From: a virus
Direction: 5' to 3' (one strand)
UHGV virus genome: UHGV-0322864
DNA: 40,716 bases
Shown here in pieces: positions 6,890-19,994 of this stretch; position 1 is the stretch's first letter; the number at the start of each line of letters is the position of its first letter. The notes under the pieces were generated by a model, which was not told the origin of the DNA, did no database searches, and saw only the letters and a program-made list of their open reading frames with translations. Both the position numbers and the translations under genes were made by a program.

Positions 6890-9800
6890 TTATCTTCGTC
6901 CGCCAACAGCAAACTCTATCGTTAACCCATTGATAGCAGCATTACTGTTAACATCATTATCTATAACATTATAGAAAAGGTATGGATGGTTCAGTCTCAC
7001 AGAGACATGCCTGTCAACACCGATCGTGTATGTCTTAGATGTGTGTGGGTGTCCATATTCATTTGAGAATTGACTACCACCAGCTTCAAATATGTAAGTA
7101 CCTGAACCAGTTGTCTGAGGTCTGAACCTGTTGATATGTTTCTGATTCCATTCGTTAGTGATGTTATCAAAATCCATACCAGTTCTTTCTAACCTCATCT
7201 CCAGTGGTTTTTCTATAACCTTATCATTAAGCCTATCATAGAAGTAATCCAAAGCACCAACATCCACTTGATAGAATCCCCTCAAGAATGAACCTACTAT
7301 CGTAACCCTCTGTCTAAAGTTTGTTGCATCCTTTCTCCAAACAAGTTCTTTGATAGATGGGTCATCCCAAGTGATCTCTTGGAAGTCAGACCAGATTGGA
7401 CCTCTCTCTAAAACAGGAGGGTCAACCAGACCGATACACTGAGCATAAGGGATAGTACGGAAAGACCAAGTATCAAACTCATAATTCCATACAGCAGCTT
7501 TAGTGCAAGCGAAGCTTTCTTTCGGCTCTCCCGGACCTACATAGAGAACCCAAACTTCTTTCTTATCCTGATGCAAGTGTACTCGAGTAGCTAGAGGGTT
7601 AACCAGACAAACCTCGTTAATCAGCATGTTCTTAACACGGTTAGATGCAATTGACTTCTTGGTTGCACCATTGTGTAAGATCACATCGTTCTGAGTAACT
7701 ACGAAATGACTACCTTCTACTTCAACCACACACTCAGGAGCAAGGATACCAGAGTCATTAAAGAGTTTCTTGAACATCAGAGGTTGGTATGTGTTATTAG
7801 TTGGAGAACCAATATACGTTTCAAACTCTGTATAAACGAACAAGTAGTCTTTAAGAGGCAGGATATCAATCAAGCTACCATTAGAATCGGCTAGGTCAAT
7901 GTAACCAGCATACCCATTCTCTAGAGCCTGAGTCTGCCCTACGATGTTAGAAGCTAAGTCCGAAGACACAACTCGATCATAGGCAAAGTCATCCCACAGT
8001 GTAGGAGCCTTGTTCTCATTGGCAAAGTTAGACCAACGAAGACGAAGCGGATAGTTAGTGGTAACACCAGAAGCATTAGCCTCTCTCATATTCAGAGCAA
8101 AAAGACGGTTGTTAAAAGATCTCACTCTCTCACATTTCCAGTTAAACTTCTTGACTGAAGGGTTTCCATCATTATCAACAACTGTTTGCTCACCCCACCC
8201 CGGGAGGTCTACAAAGTATTCTGATTCGAATTCTTTTACCTGAGGAGTTTCATAGTGAGTTGTAGCAACTGCACAGTTAGAGATAACAGCGTGATACCAA
8301 GGGTAGTCATCAAAAGCATCATAATCTTTCTGAGTCATCTGGCTGACAGTACATGTTACGTTAATCTCTCCTTTACGAAGAGCAACCAGTTTGATAGATT
8401 TACCAGTAACTGAAGTTGTAGAAACATAACCAGTTTTATCAACAGACCACTGATAAGAGTACTCACCTTCTGGAGAAGCTGTGGCTGTAATGACAATCTC
8501 TTCACCAACATCAAGGGAGGCGCTGACAATATCTAAGGTTACAGACGACAAAGGGGTTGCCAGTAAAGAAGCTCTTGCAAAACCTTCAATGTCATTCACG
8601 TTAGAGTAGTCGTAGAAGTTGTTACCTTCATACATCCCTGACGTATCAATACCGGATGTAGGCTCAGCAAAATAAACCGTCTCTTCACTTTCAGGAGGAG
8701 TTACTACTTCTTCCTCTTGAGTTTCTACTGACTCTGACACAGGAGCGGCAAATGCCATAGCACTTGTTCTCATTGTCCTTCCAGCTAAATCCACACGTAC
8801 AGTACAGACAGCAACTCTGTTACCTTCTTCAGTGGTAGCTGTAATCTCAGTAAAACCAGCAAGCAGAGCGTTGATCGTCCCTTGTGTGCTAGTCCCTGAT
8901 ACTGTTGCAATATTTGGGTTAGAAGAGGTCCAAGTAATATTTTGATTAGGGGCGTTAGCAGGAGAAAGGGTGGCAGTTAAAATATACTGAGAACCTCTAC
9001 TCACAGTAACATCTGACTGGCTTAAAGAGATACTATCAATCTGAGGGATAGAAACAATCTCACAAGAAGCAGTCTTAGTCCCGTTATCAGCAGTGATTGT
9101 TACATTACCTTCTCCATTCGCTGTAATGACAGCAGTTAAAGAGTTGGCGTTAGGGGTTACAGATACAATAGAAGCGTTATTGCTGGACCAAGTTACAGGG
9201 GTTTTGCCAGTAACAGCCGTGAGGGTAGTAGTCCCTCCTTTACGAATTGTAACAGTATCTTGACTCAAGAAGATGCCTGAATCACCATCGATGATATTAA
9301 CAGCAATCTGAGCCACTACGGATTCATTGGCAGTAGAGATAGTTACTACAAGATTACCCTCTTTCTCAAAAGATGTTAGAGTAGCAAGTTTAGAGTCACT
9401 AGGGTCTACCGTAATACTTCCATAGGATGAGTTACTAACCTCCCAAATAAGATCGGTATTGTTAGCATCAGCAGGGAGAAGAGAAACCTCTAGATTCTTG
9501 GTCTGATTGAAGTTCATTGAGATAGTTGATTCTTTAGGAACGATCTGAGAAACAACTGGATAAATCTTAATTGAGGCAGAAGCCTTCTTAGTGACTGTAG
9601 CAACCTTACGGCTAATATCAGTCAAGCTTTCATCTGTCAGTTTATATAACTTCTTATCAGTACCTACAACAAGAAAGCTATTACCTGCGCTATAATAATC
9701 GAAAGGCATAGAAACGAAAGACAGAGGGGTTAAATCCTTATCTTCATCTACATAAGAAAGAGGGGCATTGCCCCCCGTCTTAAATACTCTCTGCTCAACA

Positions 9801-9907
9801 AATCGAGCATTTATAGCATTAGTGAAAGCATTAGGAGCTAAGTCTGTCGGAGCCTGATCAGCGATAACGCCTACAGCACCTAGTGACTTTATTGGATACA
9901 GCGCCAT
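6890..9907 (-). CDS. large virion structural protein with tandem Ig-like (Big_2-type) domains
   Basis: 1005-aa ORF; three consecutive ~90-aa segments with Big_2-like pattern (e.g. VTVSRGSQYILTATLSPANAPNQNITWTSSNPNIATV...TATTEEGNRVAVCTVRV). Confidence 0.7.
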   Translation of the reverse strand: MALYPIKSLGAVGVIADQAPTDLAPNAFTNAINARFVEQRVFKTGGNAPLSYVDEDKDLTPLSFVSMPFDYYSAGNSFLVVGTDKKLYKLTDESLTDISRKVATVTKKASASIKIYPVVSQIVPKESTISMNFNQTKNLEVSLLPADANNTDLIWEVSNSSYGSITVDPSDSKLATLTSFEKEGNLVVTISTANESVVAQIAVNIIDGDSGIFLSQDTVTIRKGGTTTLTAVTGKTPVTWSSNNASIVSVTPNANSLTAVITANGEGNVTITADNGTKTASCEIVSIPQIDSISLSQSDVTVSRGSQYILTATLSPANAPNQNITWTSSNPNIATVSGTSTQGTINALLAGFTEITATTEEGNRVAVCTVRVDLAGRTMRTSAMAFAAPVSESVETQEEEVVTPPESEETVYFAEPTSGIDTSGMYEGNNFYDYSNVNDIEGFARASLLATPLSSVTLDIVSASLDVGEEIVITATASPEGEYSYQWSVDKTGYVSTTSVTGKSIKLVALRKGEINVTCTVSQMTQKDYDAFDDYPWYHAVISNCAVATTHYETPQVKEFESEYFVDLPGWGEQTVVDNDGNPSVKKFNWKCERVRSFNNRLFALNMREANASGVTTNYPLRLRWSNFANENKAPTLWDDFAYDRVVSSDLASNIVGQTQALENGYAGYIDLADSNGSLIDILPLKDYLFVYTEFETYIGSPTNNTYQPLMFKKLFNDSGILAPECVVEVEGSHFVVTQNDVILHNGATKKSIASNRVKNMLINEVCLVNPLATRVHLHQDKKEVWVLYVGPGEPKESFACTKAAVWNYEFDTWSFRTIPYAQCIGLVDPPVLERGPIWSDFQEITWDDPSIKELVWRKDATNFRQRVTIVGSFLRGFYQVDVGALDYFYDRLNDKVIEKPLEMRLERTGMDFDNITNEWNQKHINRFRPQTTGSGTYIFEAGGSQFSNEYGHPHTSKTYTIGVDRHVSVRLNHPYLFYNVIDNDVNSNAAINGLTIEFAVGGRR

Positions 9908-9916
9908 AATTCCTCC

Positions 9917-10720
9917 TTAGCTAATACGTCTCCAAATGTGAGCTGCTCTGAATGGTGGCAAAGTGTTAATAGGTTGACGAGAGATATCATCACGACCAAG
10001 ACTTACACTACCAGAGATTGTATGAGTATGTGTGTCATTATCAGTTCTCTGACTATAACCACCACCCGGACTATACCAGTTTGGCGAGCTGTTATGACCA
10101 CTAGCATCTCCACGACCAAATACCATATTGTGGCTGTGAGTATTACTGGATAGAGAGAAGCTGGAGCCATTAACTGTCATCAAAGGTACGTTCTCAGTTC
10201 GAATAGTATTGAAGACACGACCACCAGTACCACCTGCTTGGAACTCAACTCTCTGAGCATTAGGAACAGAGCCATCAGGGTTTACTACACCAGTACCCAT
10301 AATGACACCAGTCACTTTAGCCCAAGAACCAAACCCTAAGGAGATTGAATCACCGGGGTTAATGTCTTCTTCAGTGATGTAGTAAGAACCAATTCGATAG
10401 AGCTTATTCTCCATCCAGTTCTTCATGAACGCTTCCATCTGGCCTTTAGTAACAACATCCTTGTCACCAGTTCCCGGAGTAACGTTCTTAATCATTAGAC
10501 CGCCAACATCCATTGCATCACCAGTAAACTTAAGCTTCTCTGACATAATCTTAAAAGTGTCAGAATCAATATCAACTGGTTCTGTGACATTGGGGAATGT
10601 GTTCTGTAGTGTTTGTTTAATGAGGCGGATTTGAGCCGCCCCTTCGTAAATGTAATCCCTGTCTCTAGGATAGAGTGGGTTTAAGTCGGTAATAACTACC
10701 GCATTAGTTTCGATAGCCAA
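9917..10720 (-). CDS. tail fibre/receptor-binding-like protein
   Basis: 267-aa ORF; G/S/T/N-rich beta-type sequence; translationally coupled to the 1005-aa gene. Confidence 0.5.
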   Translation of the reverse strand: MAIETNAVVITDLNPLYPRDRDYIYEGAAQIRLIKQTLQNTFPNVTEPVDIDSDTFKIMSEKLKFTGDAMDVGGLMIKNVTPGTGDKDVVTKGQMEAFMKNWMENKLYRIGSYYITEEDINPGDSISLGFGSWAKVTGVIMGTGVVNPDGSVPNAQRVEFQAGGTGGRVFNTIRTENVPLMTVNGSSFSLSSNTHSHNMVFGRGDASGHNSSPNWYSPGGGYSQRTDNDTHTHTISGSVSLGRDDISRQPINTLPPFRAAHIWRRIS

Positions 10721-10732
10721 AAGGCACCTCCA

Positions 10733-11224
10733 TTAATATTTACCTTCGGTGTAAAGATTAGCTTCTGCAACTCTTCTATTATGAAGACCCTGACTTCTCT
10801 GCTTCTCTCCCTTGACCGTTATTTTATCCCAACGAAGAAATTCGGAATAAACATCCCCCTTAACATCTCCATTGATAACCTTCCTTAACTTAGATGTGCT
10901 CAAAGCACCACTGCCAACATTGAAGTTGAAAGAAGTGAGTGCATCAAACTCATGAACTAGTAAAGGAACCTTTATGTTCTTCTGAGTAGCACGAACAGAG
11001 TCTTGTGTGTCTCTATCTAGCAGAGCTAGACAATCCTCTATAGAATACGTTAATCCTTGTCTAACCGGATAACCATTCATATCGCGCGTAGCCCCTACAC
11101 ATATAGTCCATATACCTGCGGAATCTTTATAAGCCTTGGTTCTCATACCCTCATGCTTCATGATGAATTCCATTCCAGCTGGGCTTAAGTTTAATTGTAC
11201 AGGTGGCAATGCGACGTTATCCAT
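10733..11224 (-). CDS. GH24 (T4-type) lysozyme
   Basis: KHEGMRTKAYKDSAGIWTICVG carries the T4-lysozyme catalytic spacing E-(9)-D-(6)-T; 163 aa. Confidence 0.85.
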   Translation of the reverse strand: MDNVALPPVQLNLSPAGMEFIMKHEGMRTKAYKDSAGIWTICVGATRDMNGYPVRQGLTYSIEDCLALLDRDTQDSVRATQKNIKVPLLVHEFDALTSFNFNVGSGALSTSKLRKVINGDVKGDVYSEFLRWDKITVKGEKQRSQGLHNRRVAEANLYTEGKY

Positions 11225-11253: not shown

Positions 11254-11472
11254 TTAAGGTAGTATCTTTCTCAGAGCGTTAGATTCAGCATCAGGGCAAA
11301 TAACAACTAAGTTATTTTGAATTGTTCTCTGCTTACATTGAGAGCTGAGTTTCTCTACTGGAGCAGGATCAGTTACTAATGGATGAACTGCGCCTACAGG
11401 GACTGCGGTCGATACCACAACACCTGCACCTAAACAGATTAAACCATATGCAGCTTGTTTCATCATTTTCAT
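11254..11472 (-). CDS. small secreted/membrane protein next to the lysozyme (lysis-associated candidate)
   Basis: 72 aa; N-terminal hydrophobic segment MKMMKQAAYGLICLGAGVVVSTAVPVGA, two Cys in the remainder; SD AGGAGA before the ATG. Confidence 0.45.
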   Translation of the reverse strand: MKMMKQAAYGLICLGAGVVVSTAVPVGAVHPLVTDPAPVEKLSSQCKQRTIQNNLVVICPDAESNALRKILP

Positions 11473-11564: not shown

Positions 11565-13673
11565 TCACTTGTTAGATTTGAGTTCAGCAATCTCTGCTTT
11601 AAGGGTGTCGATTTGTTCCATCAAAGCCAGAATAGCTTCGTGGTGAAGACCAATCGCAATACCAGTAGAATCTGGAGATAGGACACCTTTGACAACTGTT
11701 CCATCAGGGAGGGTTCTGTCTGGGCCTGTATAGACCAACTCTGGATAGATATCCTGAACTTCTTGAGCAATGAACCCAATACCAAACTGGCCCCCGTCTA
11801 AGCGTCGCCAAGTGTACCCATGTAGTTTCTTCATCTTCTCAAGAGGTTCTTCTATCTTAGCAATATCCTTTTTAATTCGGATATCCGAATTACTCACCCA
11901 GTTAGCAGGAGCTATGGCACTACCAAACTGGTTAAACAGCCAGTCCACATTCACCCCTGCTCCTGAGAATCTAAGTATGCCAAAGCTATCAACACCCACG
12001 TTCTCCGCCATAGACATGGAGAAAACAGCACCCGGTGTTCCGGGATTACCCACTCTGCCTGTTAGCTCACAAATAAACGCCGGGGATGTTGTAGGCCACT
12101 GACCATCAGACCCTAACTTAGAAGCTGCAATGAAACCTGACCCCACACCTCTAGTGTATGTTGGGATTGTTAGCTCCCCACCAAGGTCGAATCGAATCTC
12201 GGAACTTTTACCTTGATAGTCTTCAATTCTCCATACACCACCTCCACGTTGACCATAATTACCATCAGCACGCATAGAAGATCTTATGTGCATAGAGTCT
12301 CCAATATTATAGTCAGAGCGAACCTCACCACCCTTTATAGCCGTCCCTGTTCCAGGAGCAGCGGAATCTCCATTAATAACAGACCAAGAAGTATTAGCTG
12401 CAATAAATGCTCCGTTGGCACGAACTACCCATACGCCAGATACTTTGTTTGGAACGATCTCTGCTGAGTTGTTGCGTCCGTAGACGGCGCTGGAACGGGA
12501 GGCATCGAAGGTGATTCGCCCGTATGCGTCCCCAGAAGCTGCCAACGCGGTGAGGTTCGTGGCTGGCGTAACAGTTCCCCCAGCAAACGCCCCGCTGGGA
12601 CTGAAGTATATCCCACGTGTTCCGGCGTATGTGTTGTCTAAAGAGGCTGTGATATTAGGAGCGCTATTCAACGCGACAGTCATATCAGAAGCAGAAGTTT
12701 TTCCACCTCGGAAAAACAAACCTTCTATAGAGCCATCCTGAACACCGTTCCAATCTGGTACACGGAAAGTAGTTGTACCATTACCTAAAGAATATTTGCC
12801 ACGCTGAGATGGGTCTGCTAACCAATCAGAATCGTCAATAGGGGTTAGCATTTGAGCAAACACCCATAGTTCTGGATATTTAGCTCGTTCTAATAGCTGC
12901 CCATCTAAAGTCACGTCATATGGGTGTATAAGTGCTCGGCTTGCAGCCATATGAGGAGTACCAATTCCGTAGTTCATAATACCGTTCATTGTGGCTCCAC
13001 CTGAACCGCCACTATTTCGGAGCTGTCTCAAAGTAACCGCATCATAATCACCTACAGCATCAGGTACAGTTACCGGTTGAGTAAAAGTAACTTTCTGTGT
13101 GAGCTGTTTGATATCAGAGTTAATCCCTGTACGAGTAACACCAATAGTCCGACCTTTGGAATCTTTAACATAAGAACCAATCGCAGCGAAAGGTAAATCC
13201 TCGATCTCAGGGCGGTATCGTTTAGAATAAACAGGGTACTTAGTTTCTACCCCAGAGTCATTCTGGTCAACAACCTGAAGACGACCAGCAGAGTGAATTT
13301 CTACACCTTGAACTGAGGAAGCATAACTACCAATCTTAATTGAGTTATCAGTGGTGACTTTCATCATATCCACAGACTCTACACCATTAGCCCCAGCAGA
13401 ACGGAAAGGGATGTTATTATCTACAAAAGGGTCTGCTTTGAACAAAGCACCTTCCATGATAGGTTGAATTGAATCTAATACATAATCTTTAGATGCACCT
13501 TCTGTTTTAGTTTGATAAATATCAGCTGCATCTGTTTTCTGTAGATATTTACCTGTTAAATCTACTGCACCAGCTACTCCGTCTACAGTAGAAACCCCAA
13601 CAACTGCTGCATCTCTATTGATTACAACATGTGGCATCATTATCCCAGATTTGGGCATTAATTCTCTAGCCAT
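11565..13673 (-). CDS. tail fibre with phage tail-collar-like module and C-terminal intramolecular chaperone (peptidase S74-like) domain
   Basis: Collar-like DGQLLERAKYPELW...GKYSLGNGTTTFRVPDWNGVQ; C-terminal SDIRIKKDIAKIEEPLEKMKKLHGYTWRRL...GLHHEAILALMEQIDTLKAEIAELK matches the auto-cleaving chaperone pattern. Confidence 0.8.
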   Translation of the reverse strand: MARELMPKSGIMMPHVVINRDAAVVGVSTVDGVAGAVDLTGKYLQKTDAADIYQTKTEGASKDYVLDSIQPIMEGALFKADPFVDNNIPFRSAGANGVESVDMMKVTTDNSIKIGSYASSVQGVEIHSAGRLQVVDQNDSGVETKYPVYSKRYRPEIEDLPFAAIGSYVKDSKGRTIGVTRTGINSDIKQLTQKVTFTQPVTVPDAVGDYDAVTLRQLRNSGGSGGATMNGIMNYGIGTPHMAASRALIHPYDVTLDGQLLERAKYPELWVFAQMLTPIDDSDWLADPSQRGKYSLGNGTTTFRVPDWNGVQDGSIEGLFFRGGKTSASDMTVALNSAPNITASLDNTYAGTRGIYFSPSGAFAGGTVTPATNLTALAASGDAYGRITFDASRSSAVYGRNNSAEIVPNKVSGVWVVRANGAFIAANTSWSVINGDSAAPGTGTAIKGGEVRSDYNIGDSMHIRSSMRADGNYGQRGGGVWRIEDYQGKSSEIRFDLGGELTIPTYTRGVGSGFIAASKLGSDGQWPTTSPAFICELTGRVGNPGTPGAVFSMSMAENVGVDSFGILRFSGAGVNVDWLFNQFGSAIAPANWVSNSDIRIKKDIAKIEEPLEKMKKLHGYTWRRLDGGQFGIGFIAQEVQDIYPELVYTGPDRTLPDGTVVKGVLSPDSTGIAIGLHHEAILALMEQIDTLKAEIAELKSNK

Positions 13674-13685
13674 TAAATCCTCCTA

Positions 13686-13708
13686 AAAAGCTCCCCGAAG
13701 GGAGCTGT
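13686..13708 (-). terminator. intrinsic terminator between the two tail-fibre genes
   Basis: Minus-strand AGCUCCC-UUCG-GGGAGCU followed by UUUUU, then the SD of the next gene. Confidence 0.6.
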
Positions 13709-13713
13709 GTTAA

Positions 13714-16700
13714 TTAACGAGCTTTCAGTACAGCTACTTCATTCTCCAGAGCTTCAATCTTGTCCAAGAGAACAAGAAGGGCTTCATGATGAAGAGCGGC
13801 TGCTACACCATAGGTGTCAACAGATTTAACATCCTTCACAATTGTTCCATCTTTCAACTCCGTGTCAGAGAATTTAGTAACTTTGACGGCATCCGGAAAA
13901 ACCTTCTCAACATCTTGAGCTAAGAAACCAATACCATTAGGTTTAGAGAGTTTATCCAACCGCTCCCATGTTACACCCTTAATAGCTTTAAGTTTCTCTA
14001 TAGGGTTTTCAATCCGTTTGATATTTGTCTTAAGTCTCTCATCGGAAGTGCTTGCCCAATTCCCTGCTTGTGCCGTTCCATCAGGAAAGAACTTGAAGTC
14101 AGCAGCTGTTCCAGTACCACCATTCACAGAAATCTGAGCGTGCATCAACTCTGTTCCACCACCACGAACACCACCAAAAGTGTAACTGCCATCATACCAG
14201 TCACCAGAGAAATAGGAAACATACCCCGGAGTACTTTGGTTGAAATTGATCATCCTGATAGCGTTCTTCTCACTTGGTGCTACACCAACAGAATTGTTAG
14301 CCCTGACCAGCACGTCAGTAGGTCTTAAGTATGCATCAATTGTTAGTGCCCCGTCAGCCCTCTCTGTTCCAATCTGGGTGATAGCATTGGGAAATACCAG
14401 AGTACCAGCATTATTGAATTTCCATTCCTGGTTTCCATTAAGAATCTTAGCACCAGACTTATTAGAAGCCCCATCTATCTCTCCATAAGCAGACATAGTT
14501 GCTGAGTAGGTTAAATCTGTTCCTATCTTATATTCTGAACGAACCAGACCACCAGATACAGTAAACCCAGCCGATGGTTTAACATCATCGCTATTAATAA
14601 CACTCCAAGAAGTATTAGCAGCAGTAAAGCCACCATTAGCACGAATCACCCAGACACCTATGAAGCTGTTGGTGCGGACTTCGGTCGTGTTGTCGCGACC
14701 ATAAGAGGCGTTTGATAGGCCCGCTCGAAAGCCGACGGAAAGCGCTGGTGTGGTTCCTGCGCCTAACGGAATATTAAGTGCTGGATCAGCCGCAAACATC
14801 GCCCCCGTAGGATCTCCATATACGCTCCATATGTTCGCACCAACGGAGCCTGTAATATCAGGCGCGGCGTTCTGCTGAACAGTACCGTCGTTGGCGCTGT
14901 TACCACCGTCACCGCGAGCATACAGACCAGAGATAGAACCGGTTTGAACGCCATTTCTATCAGGAACGCGGAAAGTAGTAGAACCATCACCTAAAGAGTA
15001 TTTACCTCTTTTCTGAGGATCAGCCAGCCAGTCAGCATCTGTGATAGGGCTTAAGGCTTGAGCATAAGCCCATAAATCTGGATATGAAGTACGAGACAAA
15101 AGTTGTCCATCAGAAGGTACATCATTAGAGTGAATTAAAGCACGACTATCAATTAAACGGAAATCACCTATGTTGAAGTTGGACACTCCGTTTAAGCTTG
15201 CACCACTTCCACCACCTCCTTGGTTGCGTAATTGACGAAGGGTAACTGCATCTGAATCACTAACCGCATCACCACCTAAACGAGTGGGACCAATCAATCC
15301 TTCCAGTTTCGTAATATCTGAGTTAACCCCAGAAGAGTTGATAGCAGCAGCACCAATAGCAGCAGGAGTAGGTTTGTTACCTTCAGTGTAAAACTTATTC
15401 TCACCGCTAGGACCAACATGCACAGGAACCGAAGCAGACAGCACTTTTGTGTTACTTGTATCGTTGCCAACCAAGACAGTACCGTCAGAACCAGAGGTGA
15501 TCAAATTAACAGCAACACCATTACTAGAAGTGCCTGTTAATACAATACCTGTTCCTAGATTTAAGTGTCCTGTCATTTTACCACCAGAAGTAGGAAGAGC
15601 ACCTAAATCAGAAGAGGTCAAAGCAACATTACCTGTTACCTCGTCAGGAACTTTTCCATTAACTGCAACAACATATGGAACTTGAGCAAGAGGCTTACCA
15701 TCATACTGAGCATCACTGGTAAGATTTGGAGATCGAATTGCTTCCCCTCCTGTCCAATCAGGCAGACGGATGTTGATGTAGTTTGTAGAATCCGCATCAG
15801 TGATACCGTCAGCAAGTTTACCCCAAGAATAGTATTGCTTTGAACCAGCCTGCCACTCTGTCTCAGAAACTACCGGAAGCTGACCGTTGACCAAAGAAGC
15901 TCCTAAATCTGATGCAGTGTCTTTGGAAACCAAACGACCATCAGCAGGCAAAATACCCGGGTAAGAAACAGGACGAGATGGGTCATATGGAAACATCAAC
16001 AATTCACCAAGATACAGAGATGGGTTCCCTGTCGGGATGGTGATATCAATATTACCAGTTGAGTCAGGAATACGAGAGTTTACTGTTATTACCCTATTCT
16101 CTGTCTTAACTGGGGTTAATGTTTTGTTCGAAGCTACAGTATAAAATTCATATTTGTAATCTTCCCAAACCAGAACGTTCTCACCAGTTTTTCTGTTAAC
16201 AGCATCGGCATCAGCCGCAGCTTTTGTTCTGTATGTTTTAACATAACCATCCACTTTCCCATCAACCTGAGATGTACTGTAAGATGCAACGTTTACGACA
16301 TTATTTAAACCAACTGAAGTTTTATCTAAGACTAGATTAACATCACCGGTAGCTGGAGATCCTCCGTTCACTGCAACTGAACGAACAGATGGGATTAAGT
16401 TAGCGATATCCTCTAAGGTTGTTTTATGTACGGTATTATCGTCCTTATCAACATAGAATCCTAAATCACCAAGCTCAGGAATACCTGTAGGTGCTGTATC
16501 CAAGTCTTTAACAGAACCATCTTTTCCGGGTTCGCCTTCTGGGATACCTAAAGAGATTACACCAGTGTTAGGGTTAAAAGAACCAGTAGCTTGACTCCCC
16601 GGAGGAAGGGTAGTTACATCAACAGACATTCCCAACAGGATATCAAGCTGTCTCTGAACTTCGATTAGTTTCTGGTTAATGAGAGCAACGGCATTATTAG

Positions 16701-17001
16701 CATCCGACACTGCTGCGTTAGTCTGAGCAATAAGTGTCATCAAACGAGCATCTTGATCTTTAAAGTCCTGTTTAAGATCTTCGATATCTTGCTTCATTAA
16801 AACACCTTGTTGATACAGACGTTCTACTTCAGTGATCAAGTCATCAATTGTACCAAACTTAGACTCCGCTAGCAGTGCCCAATATTTGGAGTCAGCTGCA
16901 TATTCTGCTGCTTGCTTGTAAGCTCCGATAGAGCCTTCCTTAGCACCAAACTGCCCAACATCATTCACTGCATCAGGTGCTTGGCTATTATAAACGATCA
17001 T
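13714..17001 (-). CDS. long tail fibre with collar-like module and C-terminal intramolecular chaperone domain
   Basis: 1095 aa; N-terminal coiled coil; shares a ~200-aa module with the 702-aa fibre (DAVTLRQLRN...GKYSLGDGSTTFRVPDRNGVQ...TSWSVIN); C-terminal SDERLKTNIKRIENPIEKLK...ALHHEALLVLLDKIEALENEVAVLK. Confidence 0.8.
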   Translation of the reverse strand: MIVYNSQAPDAVNDVGQFGAKEGSIGAYKQAAEYAADSKYWALLAESKFGTIDDLITEVERLYQQGVLMKQDIEDLKQDFKDQDARLMTLIAQTNAAVSDANNAVALINQKLIEVQRQLDILLGMSVDVTTLPPGSQATGSFNPNTGVISLGIPEGEPGKDGSVKDLDTAPTGIPELGDLGFYVDKDDNTVHKTTLEDIANLIPSVRSVAVNGGSPATGDVNLVLDKTSVGLNNVVNVASYSTSQVDGKVDGYVKTYRTKAAADADAVNRKTGENVLVWEDYKYEFYTVASNKTLTPVKTENRVITVNSRIPDSTGNIDITIPTGNPSLYLGELLMFPYDPSRPVSYPGILPADGRLVSKDTASDLGASLVNGQLPVVSETEWQAGSKQYYSWGKLADGITDADSTNYINIRLPDWTGGEAIRSPNLTSDAQYDGKPLAQVPYVVAVNGKVPDEVTGNVALTSSDLGALPTSGGKMTGHLNLGTGIVLTGTSSNGVAVNLITSGSDGTVLVGNDTSNTKVLSASVPVHVGPSGENKFYTEGNKPTPAAIGAAAINSSGVNSDITKLEGLIGPTRLGGDAVSDSDAVTLRQLRNQGGGGSGASLNGVSNFNIGDFRLIDSRALIHSNDVPSDGQLLSRTSYPDLWAYAQALSPITDADWLADPQKRGKYSLGDGSTTFRVPDRNGVQTGSISGLYARGDGGNSANDGTVQQNAAPDITGSVGANIWSVYGDPTGAMFAADPALNIPLGAGTTPALSVGFRAGLSNASYGRDNTTEVRTNSFIGVWVIRANGGFTAANTSWSVINSDDVKPSAGFTVSGGLVRSEYKIGTDLTYSATMSAYGEIDGASNKSGAKILNGNQEWKFNNAGTLVFPNAITQIGTERADGALTIDAYLRPTDVLVRANNSVGVAPSEKNAIRMINFNQSTPGYVSYFSGDWYDGSYTFGGVRGGGTELMHAQISVNGGTGTAADFKFFPDGTAQAGNWASTSDERLKTNIKRIENPIEKLKAIKGVTWERLDKLSKPNGIGFLAQDVEKVFPDAVKVTKFSDTELKDGTIVKDVKSVDTYGVAAALHHEALLVLLDKIEALENEVAVLKAR

Positions 17002-17010
17002 ATTATCTCC

Positions 17011-17763
17011 TTATACACGAGAAGTACGAATACCATAAATATCAGGCAAGCTGCTCTGAAGTCGAGTCATGTTATTCGGAATTGCGATAGGTGAACCTGA
17101 GTACTCTTGTTTCTTATGCTGCTCTACTATTTCATCAAGGATAGCTTTTCCTAATGCAGACCATTTCTGAACTCCATTATCATCTTGAACAAATAAGCAA
17201 GCGTGACGTAGAGTGAAATACAGAAGAAGCTCTGGTGCAATAGTGAGGATAGCACTGGTATCTGTATCTTCATGGAATTCCGGTGGGTCCGCATAATAGC
17301 TAAGAATCACTGAGTTTTCTGCTGGAATCAAAGGGCTTCCATCATCAGGATAAACAGGAGTATCTGCTTCAATACTAGGATAGAAAATGAAACGACTCCC
17401 GAAACGAGCAAAGTTAACAGGCTGGTTGTTCCAGTGGGATGGGTTAATTGTTCCATGCTGTCTACGATAGCTAATCTCTTCCGGAGATGTTACTTGGAAG
17501 ATTGTACCATCTTTGGCTCTCATCATCCATTGAGCTTCTAAGTAATCAGGAGGAATATAAGCTACTCCATCTTTAATATCTAAATAGACTTCTTTTTCCA
17601 GAGGAGGAATACGTAAGTTACGATAGATCTCTTTCTCTGCAAAGTTAATAAAGTTTGGAATTTGATTAACAAATTCATCATCGTCTCGATCGGCCCACAA
17701 GGCAACAGCTTTCTTAAGCCAGCCATACGTGTTAATCGGGTTTTGCACTTCAGGCATCGCCAT
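17011..17763 (-). CDS. virion structural protein (head-tail adaptor/connector candidate)
   Basis: 250-aa ORF between the capsid and tail-fibre genes; SD AAGGAGG; coupled to the downstream fibre gene. Confidence 0.5.
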   Translation of the reverse strand: MAMPEVQNPINTYGWLKKAVALWADRDDDEFVNQIPNFINFAEKEIYRNLRIPPLEKEVYLDIKDGVAYIPPDYLEAQWMMRAKDGTIFQVTSPEEISYRRQHGTINPSHWNNQPVNFARFGSRFIFYPSIEADTPVYPDDGSPLIPAENSVILSYYADPPEFHEDTDTSAILTIAPELLLYFTLRHACLFVQDDNGVQKWSALGKAILDEIVEQHKKQEYSGSPIAIPNNMTRLQSSLPDIYGIRTSRV

Positions 17764-17892: not shown

Positions 17893-18849
17893 TTATACTG
17901 CTTTAGGAGTAGCAGGAATAGAACAAGTAGCTGTAACTGTAGTTTGAGATTTATGTGTTGCCTTAGCTGTAACAGTTTCAACACCCGGATCATCTGCAAG
18001 AGTGAGATTACCAGAGCTATCTACTGTACCAGCAGCAGTTGGGGTTACTTCATAGTTGAAGTTAGTTGCAGCAGTATTACTCGTAAACATATCAGCAAAA
18101 GGTATTACATCGCCACCAACTTTAGCCTCTACAGTTTTAGCTGTGATGGCAGCTTTAGGAACCACACCACTGATAGTCCCTGTAGCAGTAACACTTGTCT
18201 GCGTCTTGTGGGTAGCAGTAATAGTGATATCGCCTGTAGCATTATTCGCTAAAGTAACAAGACCAGTATCAGGGTTGATAGAGGTAGTCATTCCAGAAGG
18301 AGTAGCTACTAGGTTATAATTGGTTGCTGAAGAGTTAGTTGCTGTGAATAAGTTAGCAAACGTAACAGTATCACCACCAATTTTACCAGTGACAGTTTTT
18401 CCAGTAATAGCTGCTTTAGCAACAACACCTGTAAAGGTTACAGTGGCTTCCACACCTGACTGAGTTTTATGGGTAGCTTTAACAGTGACTGTACCTGTTG
18501 CATTGTTGCTTAGAGTTAAAACTCCTGCTGCGCTAACAGTTCCTGTTGATGATGGAGCTACGACAAAAGTATAATCTTCTGCTGAAGAGTTGGTTGCTGT
18601 GAACATTGTAGTAAAGGCTGTAGTGCTTCCACCCACTTTACCAGTAATGTTAGCTTTGGCTTCGATAGTAGCAGGTTCAAAAACAGATTGAACCGTAGCA
18701 GTGCCTTTCTTACCACCTTTAGTAGCCGTAATAGTTGCTGAGGTTTCTTGCGACGCACTCGGTGCAGTATATAGCCCAGAAACAGAAACAGCCCCACCGC
18801 CCTCAACGGACCAACTAAATCCGGTTGTGCTTGTGGAGCCGTCGCTCAT
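17893..18849 (-). CDS. Ig-like (three Big_2-type repeats) capsid decoration module, probably made as a -1 frameshift extension of the major capsid protein
   Basis: Three ~95-aa repeats each ending ...TVTAKATHK(S/T)QT...; no SD before the annotated ATG; frame open upstream into the capsid gene (see findings). Confidence 0.7.
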   Translation of the reverse strand: MSDGSTSTTGFSWSVEGGGAVSVSGLYTAPSASQETSATITATKGGKKGTATVQSVFEPATIEAKANITGKVGGSTTAFTTMFTATNSSAEDYTFVVAPSSTGTVSAAGVLTLSNNATGTVTVKATHKTQSGVEATVTFTGVVAKAAITGKTVTGKIGGDTVTFANLFTATNSSATNYNLVATPSGMTTSINPDTGLVTLANNATGDITITATHKTQTSVTATGTISGVVPKAAITAKTVEAKVGGDVIPFADMFTSNTAATNFNYEVTPTAAGTVDSSGNLTLADDPGVETVTAKATHKSQTTVTATCSIPATPKAV

Positions 18850-18932: not shown

Positions 18933-19994
18933 TTACGCCGCCGCTACCTTTCCCGCAGCAGTGAACAGAACGCCGGAAGCATACGGGTTGCGGTGACGCA
19001 GACCAACTTCCATTTCAATCATCCACTTCTCGTAAGAACCGTCTTTAGCCAGTTCAGTACGTTTCGGAGCACGCAGAACCATCTGGGTCCAGTCAGCGCT
19101 ACGGAAGAAGTAAACTGCATCGGTAGGCATCCAACGGTTAACGATGATTTTGTAGCTCTGGCCCAGCGGGTCAGTGATGCTGTTAACTTCGTAGATGAAC
19201 TGCTTGGTGTTCTCAAAGATACGCTTACGTGAACCCTGAGTATTTTCTTGCAGACCAGCGAAGATCTTAGCATGAGCCGGGTTAATCATGATGATGTCTG
19301 CTTCAGAACCAGCGGTGTACAGTTGCAGGGTCATATCAAAGATATCAGCTTCATCAAAACCAATGTTAGTGGTCGGGTTAGAAGCATTCTGTGCAACTTT
19401 AACAGTTACTGCACCAGTATCCGGGTCAGCAGGACCATTCTTGGTCTTGTCAACAACGCCACCAGCCAGACCACCGTGAGCACACAGGAACTGGAATGCA
19501 CCAGTCTTACGAGCTGCATGGGTGTCATTCAGACCAGCAACAGCAGGATCAGCTGCGGAGTTAGTCAGATACTGGTCAGCCAGAACATCGGTACGAGCCT
19601 GACCGGACAGAAGGATTTTCTCGAGGTCACGCTTGATCTCTTTACCTTTCTTCTCCAGCTGATACATCAGTTCACGACCACGACCGTAGTTAGCGGTGGT
19701 GTTAGCAGTATCAGAAACACGAACAACCTTACGCAGAATCTGAGTAACGTTAGATTTGATAACAGTCGGTTTCATTTCACCGTCTTCAGCACGAGAGCCT
19801 TCGACGTGTGCGTTATTACCGTCAACGCTTGCCAGTGCATCGGTCTGCCAGCTAAAGATAGTCTGGTTGATAGACTCTTTACCGGTCATAGATACGAACG
19901 GGGTATCCTGAGGGGACAGAACAGAAATCCAGTTAGCAAAAGAAAGTTTTTTACCATTCTGGTCATACGATACAAATAAAGTTGGATTAGCCAT
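18933..19994 (-). CDS. major capsid protein
   Basis: 353-aa ORF directly after the scaffold gene; strong SD (TAGGAGC); ends FTAAGKVAAA with a G_GGA_AAG slippery heptamer. Confidence 0.75.
   Translation of the reverse strand: MANPTLFVSYDQNGKKLSFANWISVLSPQDTPFVSMTGKESINQTIFSWQTDALASVDGNNAHVEGSRAEDGEMKPTVIKSNVTQILRKVVRVSDTANTTANYGRGRELMYQLEKKGKEIKRDLEKILLSGQARTDVLADQYLTNSAADPAVAGLNDTHAARKTGAFQFLCAHGGLAGGVVDKTKNGPADPDTGAVTVKVAQNASNPTTNIGFDEADIFDMTLQLYTAGSEADIIMINPAHAKIFAGLQENTQGSRKRIFENTKQFIYEVNSITDPLGQSYKIIVNRWMPTDAVYFFRSADWTQMVLRAPKRTELAKDGSYEKWMIEMEVGLRHRNPYASGVLFTAAGKVAAA
18948..18954 (-). other. candidate -1 ribosomal slippery heptamer G_GGA_AAG near the capsid gene 3' end
   Basis: Capsid frame reads GCG GGA AAG GTA GCG GCG GCG TAA; X_XXY_YYZ pattern; the -1 frame is open from here into the Ig-like ORF; hairpin TAACAGT/ACTGTTA 12 nt downstream. 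Confidence 0.6.

What the first reader, a model, noticed from the sequence alone, without database searches (positions are those of the whole stretch)
11565..17001. Two tail fibres share a collar-like module and a self-cleaving C-terminal chaperone domain
Seen in sequence: the 1095-aa and 702-aa fibres share a ~200-aa internal module (DAVTLRQLRN...GKYSLG(D/N)G(S/T)TTFRVPD(R/W)NGVQ...TSWSVIN), differ in the segment after it, and both end in a ~110-aa domain beginning SD(E/I)R(L/I)K and ending HHEA(L/I)L.L...I..L..E(V/I)A.LK. Established knowledge: endosialidases and T5-type L-shaped fibres carry a C-terminal intramolecular chaperone (peptidase S74) that cleaves itself at a conserved Ser after trimerisation. 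Inference: two receptor specificities built on a shared scaffold, with the chaperone region as a likely recombination hotspot.
Basis: partly seen in the sequence, partly recalled or inferred. Interest (0 to 1): 0.55.

Follow-up and report, generated by a model that had tools for sequence, protein, structure and literature searches.

The report
Branched coliphage tail fibre, two subunits
The two genes encode the inner and outer subunits of the branched long tail fibre of a phiEco32/SU10-type E. coli phage; each ends in a swappable receptor-binding cassette and a self-removing folding domain, which is a known design seen here in one of its less common versions.

Summary
Window 13714-17001(-) and 11565-13673(-) encode 1095-aa (pA) and 702-aa (pB) fibre proteins of a Kuravirus-type coliphage. 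Their C-terminal ~540 aa are 43% identical (E=5e-115). That region holds a collar/T4-gp12-like module, a divergent tip domain and a Peptidase_S74 intramolecular chaperone (Pfam E~1e-14 in both). The Ser/Lys pair aligns with the cleavage site mapped by mass spectrometry in the homologue EP335 gp13.

The interpretation needs correcting in two places.
- These are not two parallel fibres. pA is the adaptor-bound proximal subunit (SU10 gp12-like). pB is the distal subunit (gp13-like) that docks on pA. This is the branched LtfA/LtfB design shown genetically in T5-like phage DT57C and described as "T-shaped fibres" in the BASEL collection.
- The chaperone is not the main recombination site. Breakpoints lie at conserved motifs flanking a ~70-aa hypervariable loop inside the collar-like module, and at the gene ends. 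That loop is replaced in both genes relative to the nearest relative. The chaperone is inherited with the tip domain.

A full receptor-binding cassette on the proximal subunit is the minority form in this subfamily (also in LAMP, PAS59, pEC-N1203-2Af.1). Verdict: new member of a known kind, low-to-moderate interest.

The parts
13714..17001 (-). pA: proximal long-tail-fibre subunit, 1095 aa (SU10 gp12 / phiEco32 gp14 / DT57C LtfA type)
   Evidence: ORF. PDB 7z47_D, SU10 'putative tail fiber', E=3e-249 over aa 1-573; 8hqz_d, DT57C LtfA, E=3e-122 over aa 235-889. phrog_10305 tail fiber.
16612..17001 (-). pA aa 1-130: adaptor-binding N-terminus and coiled coil
   Evidence: About 95% identical to SU10-type proximal fibres. 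In SU10 the first 90 residues are resolved bound to the adaptor (PMC9509320). The adaptor gene (Pfam SU10_adaptor) lies directly upstream at 17011-17763.
15592..16299 (-). pA aa 235-470: conserved region inferred to dock the distal subunit; contains a degenerate collar-like motif at aa 342-418
   Evidence: Conserved in all 120 proximal-fibre homologues whatever their C-terminus. Homologous to DT57C LtfA 226-~450, the region Golomidova et al. proposed as the LtfB contact. The RBD1 profile hits LtfA 345-465 at 37 bits but pA 342-418 only weakly.
14512..15294 (-). pA aa 570-830: collar/gp12-like module (RBD1)
   Evidence: 50-80% identical to pB 195-460. Pfam Collar 21 bits, below cut-off. The family-wide profile scores 401 bits.
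14659..14877 (-). pA aa 709-781: hypervariable loop HV1 inside RBD1
   Evidence: The only stretch with no DNA match to the nearest relative L004, between flanks of 98.6% and 95.3%. Aa 741-765 are at most 28% identical to all nine closest relatives. No protein in the 5.8-billion index shares three 5-mers with its 65-aa core.
14044..14511 (-). pA aa 831-986: divergent tip domain (RBD2), ending at the predicted cleavage Ser986 (codon 14044-14046)
   Evidence: About 20% identical to pB. Hypervariable among homologues. Ser986 aligns with EP335 gp13 Ser621.
13717..14043 (-). pA aa 987-1095: released part of the Peptidase_S74 intramolecular chaperone (109 aa, 12.1 kDa); Lys991
   Evidence: PF13884 E=1e-14 over aa 986-1040. 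dN/dS 0.025 against L004. Masses.
13689..13706 (-). Conserved UUCG-loop hairpin in the 40-nt spacer between the two fibre genes, directly upstream of the pB ribosome-binding site
   Evidence: The sequence shows AGCTCCC-TTCG-GGGAGCT followed by TTTTT and AGGAGG. Conserved in pEC-N1203-2Af.1, LAMP, EP335, L004. An analogous GGGGC-TTCG-GCCCC hairpin sits in the DT57C and DT571/2 ltfA-ltfB spacers. Homology with EK5 and EP335 resumes at nt 13705. Fold -18 kcal/mol, z=-1.95.
11565..13673 (-). pB: distal long-tail-fibre subunit, 702 aa (SU10 gp13 / phiEco32 gp15 / EP335 gp13 / DT57C LtfB type)
   Evidence: ORF. phrog_6921, E=4e-248, full length. 53% identical to EP335 gp13.
13101..13673 (-). pB aa 1-191: conserved N-terminal part that attaches to the proximal subunit
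   Evidence: 91.6% identical to SU10 gp13 and 91.1% to phiEco32 gp15. The first 45-70 aa are 55-73% identical to LtfB-type fibres of T5-like phages (E about 1e-12).
12294..13091 (-). pB aa 195-460: collar/gp12-like module (RBD1)
12464..12646 (-). pB aa 343-404: hypervariable loop HV1 inside RBD1
   Evidence: No DNA match to L004 between flanks of 95.3% and about 94%. Column entropy above 2 bits across 116 homologues.
11886..12293 (-). pB aa 461-596: divergent tip domain (RBD2), ending at the predicted cleavage Ser596 (codon 11886-11888)
11568..11885 (-). pB aa 597-702: released part of the Peptidase_S74 intramolecular chaperone (106 aa, 11.8 kDa); Lys601

Best explanation
The two genes encode the two subunits of one branched long tail fibre of a Gordonclarkvirinae (phiEco32/SU10-like) E. 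coli podophage.

Steps shown by homology to solved or tested systems:
- pA trimers bind the portal-adaptor ring through their N-termini.
- pB is the distal subunit.
- Both proteins end in a Peptidase_S74 intramolecular chaperone with an intact Ser/Lys pair.

Inferred steps:
- pB trimers dock through their first ~45-190 residues onto the conserved pA region at about aa 235-470. The C-terminal 620 aa of pA are then free as a second branch.
- Each branch ends in the same three-part cassette: a collar/gp12-like domain (RBD1) carrying a ~70-aa hypervariable loop, a hypervariable tip domain (RBD2), and the chaperone.
- After trimerisation the chaperone cuts itself off after Ser986 (pA) and Ser596 (pB). 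This leaves mature proteins of 103.2 and 63.0 kDa.
- The two branches most likely recognise different surface glycans, probably O-antigens, which gives the phage a wider or more robust first attachment.

Host range evolves by cassette exchange. Conserved motifs act as homology arms: the G(K/R)YSLG.G.TTFRVPD.NGV and VWV.RA.G.F.AANTSWSVIN motifs around the hypervariable loop, the docking region, the intergenic hairpin together with the conserved start of pB, and the last chaperone codons together with the downstream holin region.
For: Identity of the phage and the subunits:
- The rest of the window is about 94% identical to Kuravirus genomes.
- The gene order is adaptor, pA, pB, holin, lysozyme, short tail fibre, nozzle, as in SU10, EP335 and LAMP.
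- pA aa 1-573 matches the SU10 gp12 chain 7z47_D at E=3e-249. SU10 cryo-EM puts the gp12 N-terminus on the adaptor, with gp13 as the distal subunit.

Docking:
- pB aa 1-191 is about 91% identical to SU10 gp13.
- pA shares nothing with SU10 gp12 after about aa 470. The partner site must therefore lie in pA aa 1-470.
- That region and the pB N-terminus are the two pieces shared with DT57C LtfA and LtfB.

Chaperone:
- Pfam scores are above the cut-off in both proteins.
- Ser and Lys are invariant in 91 sequences.
- Both align to the proven EP335 gp13 cleavage site.
- The fold matches known chaperone domains.
- dN/dS is 0.025 and 0.054, which indicates strong purifying selection.

Receptor binding:
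- EP335 gp13 binds O157 and O26 cells.
- DT57C LtfA and LtfB recognise different O-antigens, and swapping the region after LtfA aa 663-677 switches host range.
- The BASEL kuraviruses depend on O16 antigen.

Cassette exchange:
- Against the nearest relative, only the hypervariable loop of each gene is replaced.
- Breakpoints against EK5, EP335, LAMP and pEC-N1203-2Af.1 are mapped.
- Entropy profiles are, and pairwise segment statistics.
- The RBD1 module occurs in 173 clusters at 50% identity with E<=1e-30, in many different protein contexts.
Against: - No direct evidence exists for this phage. There is no virion proteomics, no receptor data, and the host is unknown.
- The SU10 paper describes the fibre as proximal plus distal segments with one elbow, not explicitly as branched. 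The statement that phiEco32 fibres are branched rests on a personal communication cited by Golomidova et al..
- My model of the docking region failed (pLDDT 46.9), so the contact could not be examined.
- EP335 gp12, a proximal subunit with a different C-terminus, bound no cells.
Confidence: 0.82

Rival explanations
1. The two proteins form two separate, parallel sets of fibres, each attached to the tail on its own.
For: Both proteins have complete receptor-binding cassettes and chaperones. Some podophages do carry two independently anchored receptor-binding proteins (general knowledge).
Against: pB has no similarity to the adaptor-binding N-terminus of pA; BLASTP similarity starts only at pA 554 / pB 179. 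In SU10 only gp12 N-termini occupy the six adaptor sites. The pB N-terminus is the LtfB/gp15-type module that always occurs next to an LtfA/gp14-type partner.
Confidence: 0.06
2. The fibre is linear, joined end to end. pB attaches to the C-terminal end of pA, and the pA C-terminal cassette serves as a joint rather than as a second receptor-binding branch.
For: SU10 micrographs show one elbow dividing the fibre into 300- and 400-Angstrom segments, and the paper names the proteins proximal and distal. EP335 gp12 bound no cells.
Against: The pA C-terminus is polymorphic across the subfamily: Phage_tail_C_2, S74 cassettes with or without a collar module, or a Gly-rich domain. Meanwhile the pB N-terminus stays about 83-94% identical. 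A joint made by the C-terminus would have to co-vary with its partner. After chaperone cleavage the pA tip has the same architecture as the proven receptor-binding tips of EP335 gp13 and DT57C LtfA. The pA cassette is under strong purifying selection yet carries a loop that is swapped between close relatives, which is the pattern expected of a receptor-binding domain.
Confidence: 0.09
3. The pA C-terminal cassette or its chaperone is an inactive remnant of a past recombination, and only pB is functional.
For: Most kuraviruses do without it; about 70 of the 120 listed proximal-fibre clusters end in Phage_tail_C_2.
Against: dN/dS is 0.027 over pA aa 783-1095 against the nearest relative. The Ser/Lys pair is intact. 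The same architecture is kept in 33 clusters at 90% identity across at least two genera: LAMP and pEC-N1203-2Af.1 in Kuravirus, PAS59 in Suseptimavirus.
Confidence: 0.03

Closest known systems
LtfA/LtfB branched L-shaped tail fibres of T5-like siphophages DT57C and DT571/2 (Golomidova et al. 2016, PMC4728585; structure PMC10713586, PDB 8hqz)
   Same: Two adjacent genes. The first subunit carries the docking region (pA 235-470 ~ LtfA 226-~450). The second has the conserved ~45-aa N-terminus. Both end in a collar-like module, a divergent tip and a pfam13884 chaperone. A UUCG hairpin lies in the spacer between the genes. pA aa 235-889 matches LtfA at E=3e-122.
   Different: The anchor differs: a T5 LtfC collar on a siphovirus tail versus the SU10-type adaptor of a podovirus (N-terminal 230 aa unrelated). 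In DT57C the two genes share long near-identical DNA repeats that cause fusing deletions. Here the longest shared exact match is 15 nt.
Kuravirus long tail fibre, SU10 gp12 + gp13 (Siborova et al. 2022, PMC9509320; PDB 7z47)
   Same: Same virion position and gene order. The pA N-terminus and docking region are 76-95% identical to SU10-type proximal fibres (P0047). pB aa 1-191 is 91.6% identical to gp13. The distal subunit has an S74 chaperone.
   Different: SU10 gp12 is 786 aa and SU10-type proximal fibres (P0047, 786 aa) end in a Phage_tail_C_2 domain (PF25670), with no collar module or chaperone. pA instead carries a 620-aa shaft plus RBD1, RBD2 and chaperone.
EP335 gp13 (Witte et al. 2021, PMC8217332)
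   Same: Orthologue of pB, 53% identical. It has a central gp12-like segment (HHpred) and a C-terminal chaperone whose self-cleavage after Ser621 was shown by ESI-MS. The site motif STS|DERIK aligns with pA STS|DERLK and pB SNS|DIRIK. It binds O157 and O26 cells.
   Different: The hypervariable loop, tip domain and chaperone are different alleles. EP335's proximal subunit gp12 (926 aa) lacks the cassette.
'T-shaped tail fibres' (Gp12-like RBD1 + T5-like RBD2 + IMC) of Gordonclarkvirinae, Wifcevirus and Tequintavirus in the completed BASEL collection (Humolli et al. 2025, PMC11990801)
   Same: The same three-part cassette, with the same conclusion that the domains are exchanged horizontally between phage families. 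Outside kuraviruses, the pA cassette is closest to Wifcevirus myophage fibres at 62-65% identity.
   Different: That paper describes the cassette on the distal fibre of kuraviruses, attached to a proximal fibre without it. Here both subunits carry one.
Intramolecular chaperone (Peptidase S74) of K1F endosialidase, T5 pb1, GA-1 gp12, S16 gp37, and the eukaryotic MyRF ICA domain
   Different: The passenger domain is a fibre tip rather than a sialidase beta-helix. Cleavage has not been tested for this phage.
T4 gp12 short tail fibre receptor-binding domain (Pfam Collar PF07484; PDB 1H6W/5LYE)
   Different: Below the Pfam cut-off in both window proteins. No HxH zinc site. Only 13% identity over 92 aligned residues. 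The module sits mid-protein rather than at the tip.

Membership tests
Peptidase S74 / intramolecular chaperone auto-processing domain | Match to Pfam PF13884 above the gathering score | tested here: met
   pA 55 bits and pB 53.8 bits against a cut-off of 22; model positions 1-58 of 58 covered.
Peptidase S74 / intramolecular chaperone auto-processing domain | Catalytic Ser at the cleavage site with Lys five residues downstream (Ser911/Lys916 in endoNF, from my own knowledge of Schulz et al. 2010) | tested here: met
   pA S986/K991 and pB S596/K601. Both columns are invariant in the 91-sequence alignment A1. They align with the EP335 gp13 S621|D622 site.
Peptidase S74 / intramolecular chaperone auto-processing domain | C-terminal position, about 110 aa, chaperone fold ending in a long helix | tested here: met
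Peptidase S74 / intramolecular chaperone auto-processing domain | Autoproteolytic release after trimerisation, so the domain is absent from virions | not testable with these tools
   Shown only for the homologue EP335 gp13, by ESI-MS (PMC8217332).
Phage tail collar / T4 gp12-like receptor-binding domain | Match to Pfam Collar PF07484 above the gathering score | tested here: not met
   pA 21 bits and pB 16.2 bits (20.7 for the isolated module) against a cut-off of 24. Only model positions 38-54 align. All 14 related modules give hits at E<=0.1, best 8e-9, so the wider module family is Collar-related.
Phage tail collar / T4 gp12-like receptor-binding domain | Fold similarity to the T4 gp12 tip | tested here: inconclusive
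Phage tail collar / T4 gp12-like receptor-binding domain | HxH metal-binding site of the gp12 head domain | tested here: not met
   There is no HxH motif anywhere in pA or pB.
Branched two-subunit fibre of LtfA/LtfB (DT57C) and gp14/gp15 (phiEco32) type | First subunit carries the conserved docking region (LtfA 223-471 / gp14 239-508) | tested here: met
   pA aa 235-470 aligns with 8hqz_d from residue 226. The region is conserved in all 120 proximal homologues.
Branched two-subunit fibre of LtfA/LtfB (DT57C) and gp14/gp15 (phiEco32) type | Second subunit starts with the conserved ~45-aa LtfB/gp15 N-terminus and is encoded directly downstream | tested here: met
   pB aa 1-45/70 is 55-73% identical to LtfB-type fibres of T5-like phages, and aa 1-191 is 91% identical to phiEco32 gp15. 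The spacer is 40 nt.
Branched two-subunit fibre of LtfA/LtfB (DT57C) and gp14/gp15 (phiEco32) type | Both subunits carry their own receptor-binding region and chaperone | tested here: met
Branched two-subunit fibre of LtfA/LtfB (DT57C) and gp14/gp15 (phiEco32) type | Physical branching, with the second subunit attached to the side of the first | not testable with these tools
   Inferred from conservation patterns only. The docking-region model failed (pLDDT 46.9).
T-shaped tail fibre cassette (Gp12-like RBD1 + T5-like RBD2 + IMC; Humolli et al. 2025) | Tip domain (RBD2) with the fold of the T5 pb1 receptor-binding tip | tested here: inconclusive

The most novel reading that the evidence does not exclude
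[quoted passage not shown] Host range would be re-tuned by swapping only a ~70-aa loop inside the collar-like domain. That loop has been replaced in both subunits relative to the nearest relative, and the pA allele has no detectable relative in 5.8 billion protein clusters. The collar-domain loop, not the fibre tip, would then be the main specificity determinant, and this phage would recognise a receptor pair not yet represented among known phages.
Probability: 0.3. Interest if true: 0.45.

Novelty: new member of a known kind. Interest (0 to 1): 0.27.

Why it matters
[quoted passage not shown] The predicted mature ends are Ser986 and Ser596.

For host-range prediction and phage engineering, three points are useful:
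- About a third of the listed proximal-fibre clusters (41 of 120) end in an S74 chaperone, so those kuraviruses probably carry a second receptor-binding branch that is currently ignored.
- The smallest naturally exchanged unit is a ~70-aa loop flanked by near-invariant motifs inside the collar-like domain. This gives ready-made junctions for chimeras.
- The chaperone is inherited with the tip domain and should be moved together with it.

None of this changes how such fibres are understood. It extends a documented design to another genome.

Tried and rejected
- AlphaFold2 model of the pA docking region (aa 225-475, 55-sequence alignment) gave mean pLDDT 46.9. It was unusable, so no fold search was run on it.
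- Foldseek against the PDB with the pB 190-702 model recovered only the chaperone domain, not gp12 or T5 pb1.
- Sequence profile of 14 RBD1 modules against PDB sequences found only DT57C LtfA, not T4 gp12.
- The single chaperone sequence against the PDB found only S16 gp37 (6f45_A).
- I considered a recent tandem duplication of the cassette and rejected it. DNA similarity between the two genes is limited to two patches of 74-80%, with a longest exact match of 15 nt.
- I considered the chaperone as the main breakpoint. It is only partly supported. RBD2 at >=90% identity never pairs with a chaperone below 60% (0 of 141 and 0 of 36 pairs). A chaperone at >=90% pairs with RBD2 below 60% in 45 of 369 and 43 of 133 pairs.
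- I tried to separate the hypervariable loop from the tip domain as the specificity determinant using the DT57C host-switch experiment. The primers place the cloned fragment at LtfA aa ~486 to the end, and DT57C and DT571/2 diverge everywhere after aa ~677, so the published experiment cannot separate them.
- The dN/dS value for pB aa 1-340 is invalid because of an indel frame offset, and I did not use it.


Full report
WHAT IS THERE. The coordinates in the finding match two adjacent ORFs on the minus strand. I call them pA (13714..17001, 1095 aa) and pB (11565..13673, 702 aa). BLASTP between them gives 43% identity over 560 columns (pA 554-1094, pB 179-700), E=5e-115.

A sliding comparison resolves three zones:
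- A shared module at pA ~570-830 / pB ~195-460, 50-80% identical. It is about 260 aa rather than 200, and it has a poorly conserved patch in the middle.
- A segment that barely aligns, at pA 831-972 / pB 461-580, about 20% identical.
- A C-terminal domain at pA 973-1095 / pB 582-702, about 45-55% identical.

At the DNA level the two genes share only two short patches of 74-80% identity, with a longest exact match of 15 nt. This is not a recent duplication.

GENOMIC CONTEXT. The rest of the window is about 94% identical to Kuravirus genomes of the Gordonclarkvirinae, the phiEco32/SU10 group. The neighbouring genes are:
- the SU10-type adaptor (17011-17763, Pfam SU10_adaptor);
- a holin-sized ORF (11254-11472);
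- a lysozyme (10733-11224);
- the short tail fibre (9917-10720, Gp10_C);
- the nozzle protein with Big_2 domains (6890-9907).

pA aa 1-573 matches the SU10 long-tail-fibre proximal protein gp12 (PDB 7z47_D) at E=3e-249. pA aa 235-889 matches DT57C LtfA (PDB 8hqz_d) at E=3e-122. pB is a full-length member of phrog_6921. Its first 191 aa are 91.6% identical to SU10 gp13 and 91.1% to phiEco32 gp15.

In SU10, six fibres are each built from a gp12 trimer bound by its N-termini to the adaptor and a gp13 trimer as the distal part (PMC9509320). pA and pB are therefore the proximal and distal subunits of one fibre. They are not two parallel fibres.

THE CHAPERONE DOMAIN. Pfam Peptidase_S74 (PF13884) scores 55 and 53.8 bits against a cut-off of 22 and covers the whole model, at pA 986-1040 and pB 596-648. 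In a 91-sequence alignment of proximal and distal cassettes, the Ser and the Lys five residues downstream are both invariant.

Self-cleavage between Ser621 and Asp622 was demonstrated for EP335 gp13 by ESI-MS (PMC8217332). EP335 gp13 is 53% identical to pB. Its site RSTS|DERIK aligns with pA ASTS|DERLK (S986|D987) and pB VSNS|DIRIK (S596|D597). Predicted products are 103.2 + 12.1 kDa for pA and 63.0 + 11.8 kDa for pB.

An AlphaFold2 model of pB 190-702 (pLDDT 72.8) has a C-terminal domain that matches known chaperone domains:

Against the nearest relative, dN/dS is 0.025 for the pA chaperone and 0.054 for the pB chaperone. Both domains are under strong purifying selection. Actual cleavage in this phage remains an inference.

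THE SHARED 'COLLAR-LIKE' MODULE. Pfam Collar (PF07484) is below its cut-off in both proteins (21 and 16 bits vs 24) and aligns only the G.G.TTFRVPD.NG motif. I aligned 14 such modules from kuraviruses and DT57C-type phages. All 14 give Collar hits, the best at 8e-9.

Published HHpred and InterPro analyses of orthologues reach the same 'Gp12-like' assignment. I therefore treat 'collar/gp12-like' as reasonable but not as a met membership test. The module is common and occurs in many contexts. An exhaustive HMMER search found 173 clusters at 50% identity with E<=1e-30, and 635 at <=1e-10, in proteins of many lengths and positions.

HOW THE FIBRE IS PROBABLY BUILT. Golomidova et al. (PMC4728585) showed genetically that DT57C and DT571/2 have a branched fibre:
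- LtfA attaches to the tail and LtfB attaches through LtfA.
- Both end in pfam13884 domains, and they recognise different O-antigens.
- LtfA 223-471 is related to phiEco32 gp14, and the first 45 aa of LtfB are related to gp15.

This window has both hallmarks. It also has the DT57C feature that most kuraviruses lack, a full cassette on the first subunit.

A conservation argument places the docking site. pB aa 1-191 stays 83-94% identical across kuraviruses. The proximal subunit downstream of about aa 470 is polymorphic among the 120 listed clusters at 90% identity:
- about 70 clusters end in Phage_tail_C_2 (PF25670), as in SU10-type fibres such as P0047 and in EcoN5;
- 33 clusters of 1067-1104 aa have collar module, tip and S74, including this phage, LAMP gp14, PAS59 and pEC-N1203-2Af.1;
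- 8 are shorter S74 forms such as IMEP8;
- one has a Gly-rich domain (PF21722, P0071); O18-011, listed without a precomputed Pfam hit, also scans as Gly_rich_2, and a few others have no Pfam hit.

The partner surface for pB must therefore lie in pA aa 1-470, which leaves the pA C-terminal 620 aa as a free second branch. I could not test this structurally, because the docking-region model failed (pLDDT 46.9).

WHERE RECOMBINATION ACTUALLY FALLS. The nearest relative is a Logan contig from SRR31481196 (L004). It is 98.6%, 95.3% and about 91-94% identical across the locus, except for two unalignable patches:
- window 14659-14877, which is pA aa 709-781;
- window 12464-12646, which is pB aa 343-404.

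These are the equivalent positions of the two genes, a hypervariable loop (HV1) inside the collar-like module. The loop is flanked by the near-invariant motifs G(K/R)YSLG.G.TTFRVPD.NGV and VWV.RA.G.F.AANTSWSVIN.

Entropy profiles over 116 distal and 33 proximal homologues show two hypervariable zones, HV1 and the tip domain RBD2. The chaperone is intermediate. pA aa 741-765 are at most 28% identical to all nine closest relatives. No protein in the 5.8-billion-cluster index shares three 5-mers with the 65-aa HV1 core.

Against the backbone relative EK5, DNA homology behaves as follows:
- it ends after about pA aa 425;
- it resumes at nt 13705, in the intergenic hairpin, and runs to pB aa 316;
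- it is then lost, and resumes two bases after the pB stop codon at 97.5%.

Against EP335 and LAMP, homology resumes inside the last 10-25 chaperone codons, at pB 677 and 692.

Pairwise segment statistics give the following:
- RBD2 and the chaperone are the most tightly coupled segments in the distal-fibre set (Spearman 0.55); in the proximal-fibre set the value is 0.62, but scaffold-RBD2, N-terminus-scaffold, N-terminus-RBD2 and scaffold-chaperone are higher.
- RBD2 at >=90% identity is never paired with a chaperone below 60% (0 of 141 and 0 of 36 pairs).
- A chaperone at >=90% is paired with RBD2 below 60% in 45 of 369 and 43 of 133 pairs.
- RBD2 at >=90% goes with HV1 below 60% in 111 of 141 and 31 of 36 pairs.

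The most mobile unit is therefore the loop inside the collar-like module. The chaperone travels with its tip domain. Only its conserved 3' end, together with the downstream DNA, serves as a homology arm. These statistics rest on cluster representatives and on rough alignments of hypervariable regions, so they show tendencies, not rates.

ORIGIN OF THE CASSETTES. Over its full length the pA cassette (aa 560-1095) is closest to pEC-N1203-2Af.1 at 80%. Next come fibres of Wifcevirus myophages from O157 hosts: Ro157lw at 64.6% and FEC19 at 62%. These are ahead of kuravirus distal fibres (about 53%) and DT571/2 LtfA (44%). This agrees with the cross-family exchange reported in the BASEL study.

COMPARISON WITH WHAT IS KNOWN, AND NOVELTY. 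Every element has been described before:
- the chaperone and its cleavage in a kuravirus distal fibre;
- the RBD1 + RBD2 + chaperone 'T-shaped' cassette;
- the branched two-subunit design with cassettes on both subunits, in DT57C.

Deposited kuraviruses with the same double-cassette layout exist: LAMP, PAS59 and pEC-N1203-2Af.1. The papers I read do not discuss that layout for kuraviruses.

What is specific to this window is a new pair of hypervariable-loop alleles and the clean demonstration that the loop is exchanged on its own. I rate this as a new member of a known kind, with low-to-moderate interest.

LIMITS. Host, receptor, virion composition and cleavage are all untested for this phage. 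The branching geometry is inferred. The gp12-like and T5-like fold assignments were only weakly reproduced here.

Noticed in passing
window 13689-13706 (- strand), spacer between pA and pB: A 7-bp GC-rich hairpin with a UUCG loop, followed by U5 and the pB Shine-Dalgarno sequence. It is conserved in every kuravirus locus fetched (EP335, LAMP, pEC-N1203-2Af.1, L004). An analogous GGGGC-UUCG-GCCCC hairpin sits in the ltfA-ltfB spacer of the T5-like phages DT57C and DT571/2. DNA homology with distant relatives resumes exactly here. It could be an attenuating terminator, an RNA stabiliser or a recombination arm. Fold energy is -18 kcal/mol, z=-1.95.
   Followed up: partly
window ~18947-18953 (- strand), end of the major capsid gene 18933..19994: The slippery heptamer G_GGA_AAG lies 5 codons before the capsid stop codon. 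The -1 frame runs without a stop into the Ig-like ORF 17893..18849. This matches the programmed -1 frameshift that gives an extended capsid isoform in phage YF01 (PMC9965538).
   Followed up: partly
window 15748-15978 (pA aa 342-418): The inferred docking region of the proximal subunit contains a degenerate second copy of the collar motif (ADGRL...W...RLPDWTGG). The RBD1 profile hits the equivalent part of DT57C LtfA (aa 345-465) at 37 bits, E=2e-8. On pA itself it scores only 1.1 bits, and BLASTP gives E=0.015. The branch point may be an old, diverged collar domain.
   Followed up: partly
window 14727-14801 (pA aa 741-765) within HV1: This stretch is at most 28% identical to all nine closest relatives. 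The 65-aa HV1 core has no word-sharing relative among 5.8 billion protein clusters. It is a new allele of the probable specificity loop.
   Followed up: yes
window 13717-15324 (pA aa 560-1095): Outside kuraviruses, the whole cassette is closest (62-65% identity over 98% of its length) to tail fibres of Wifcevirus myophages isolated on E. coli O157 (Ro157lw, FEC19, EC150). This points to exchange across phage families and hints at the kind of host glycan recognised.
   Followed up: partly
whole window, 1-40716: ARAGORN finds no tRNA gene. Several close relatives list a tRNA-Arg in the region that aligns with window 17002-40716. The tRNA may lie in the ~17% of the query that did not align, or it may be absent from this phage.
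   Followed up: no
window 9917-10720 (- strand): By the mechanical ORF call, the short tail fibre gene (267 aa, Gp10_C, phrog_6465) starts with TTG, 10 nt downstream of the nozzle... upstream neighbour boundary; the 267-aa length agrees with the length reported for all Gordonclarkvirinae short fibres.
   Followed up: no
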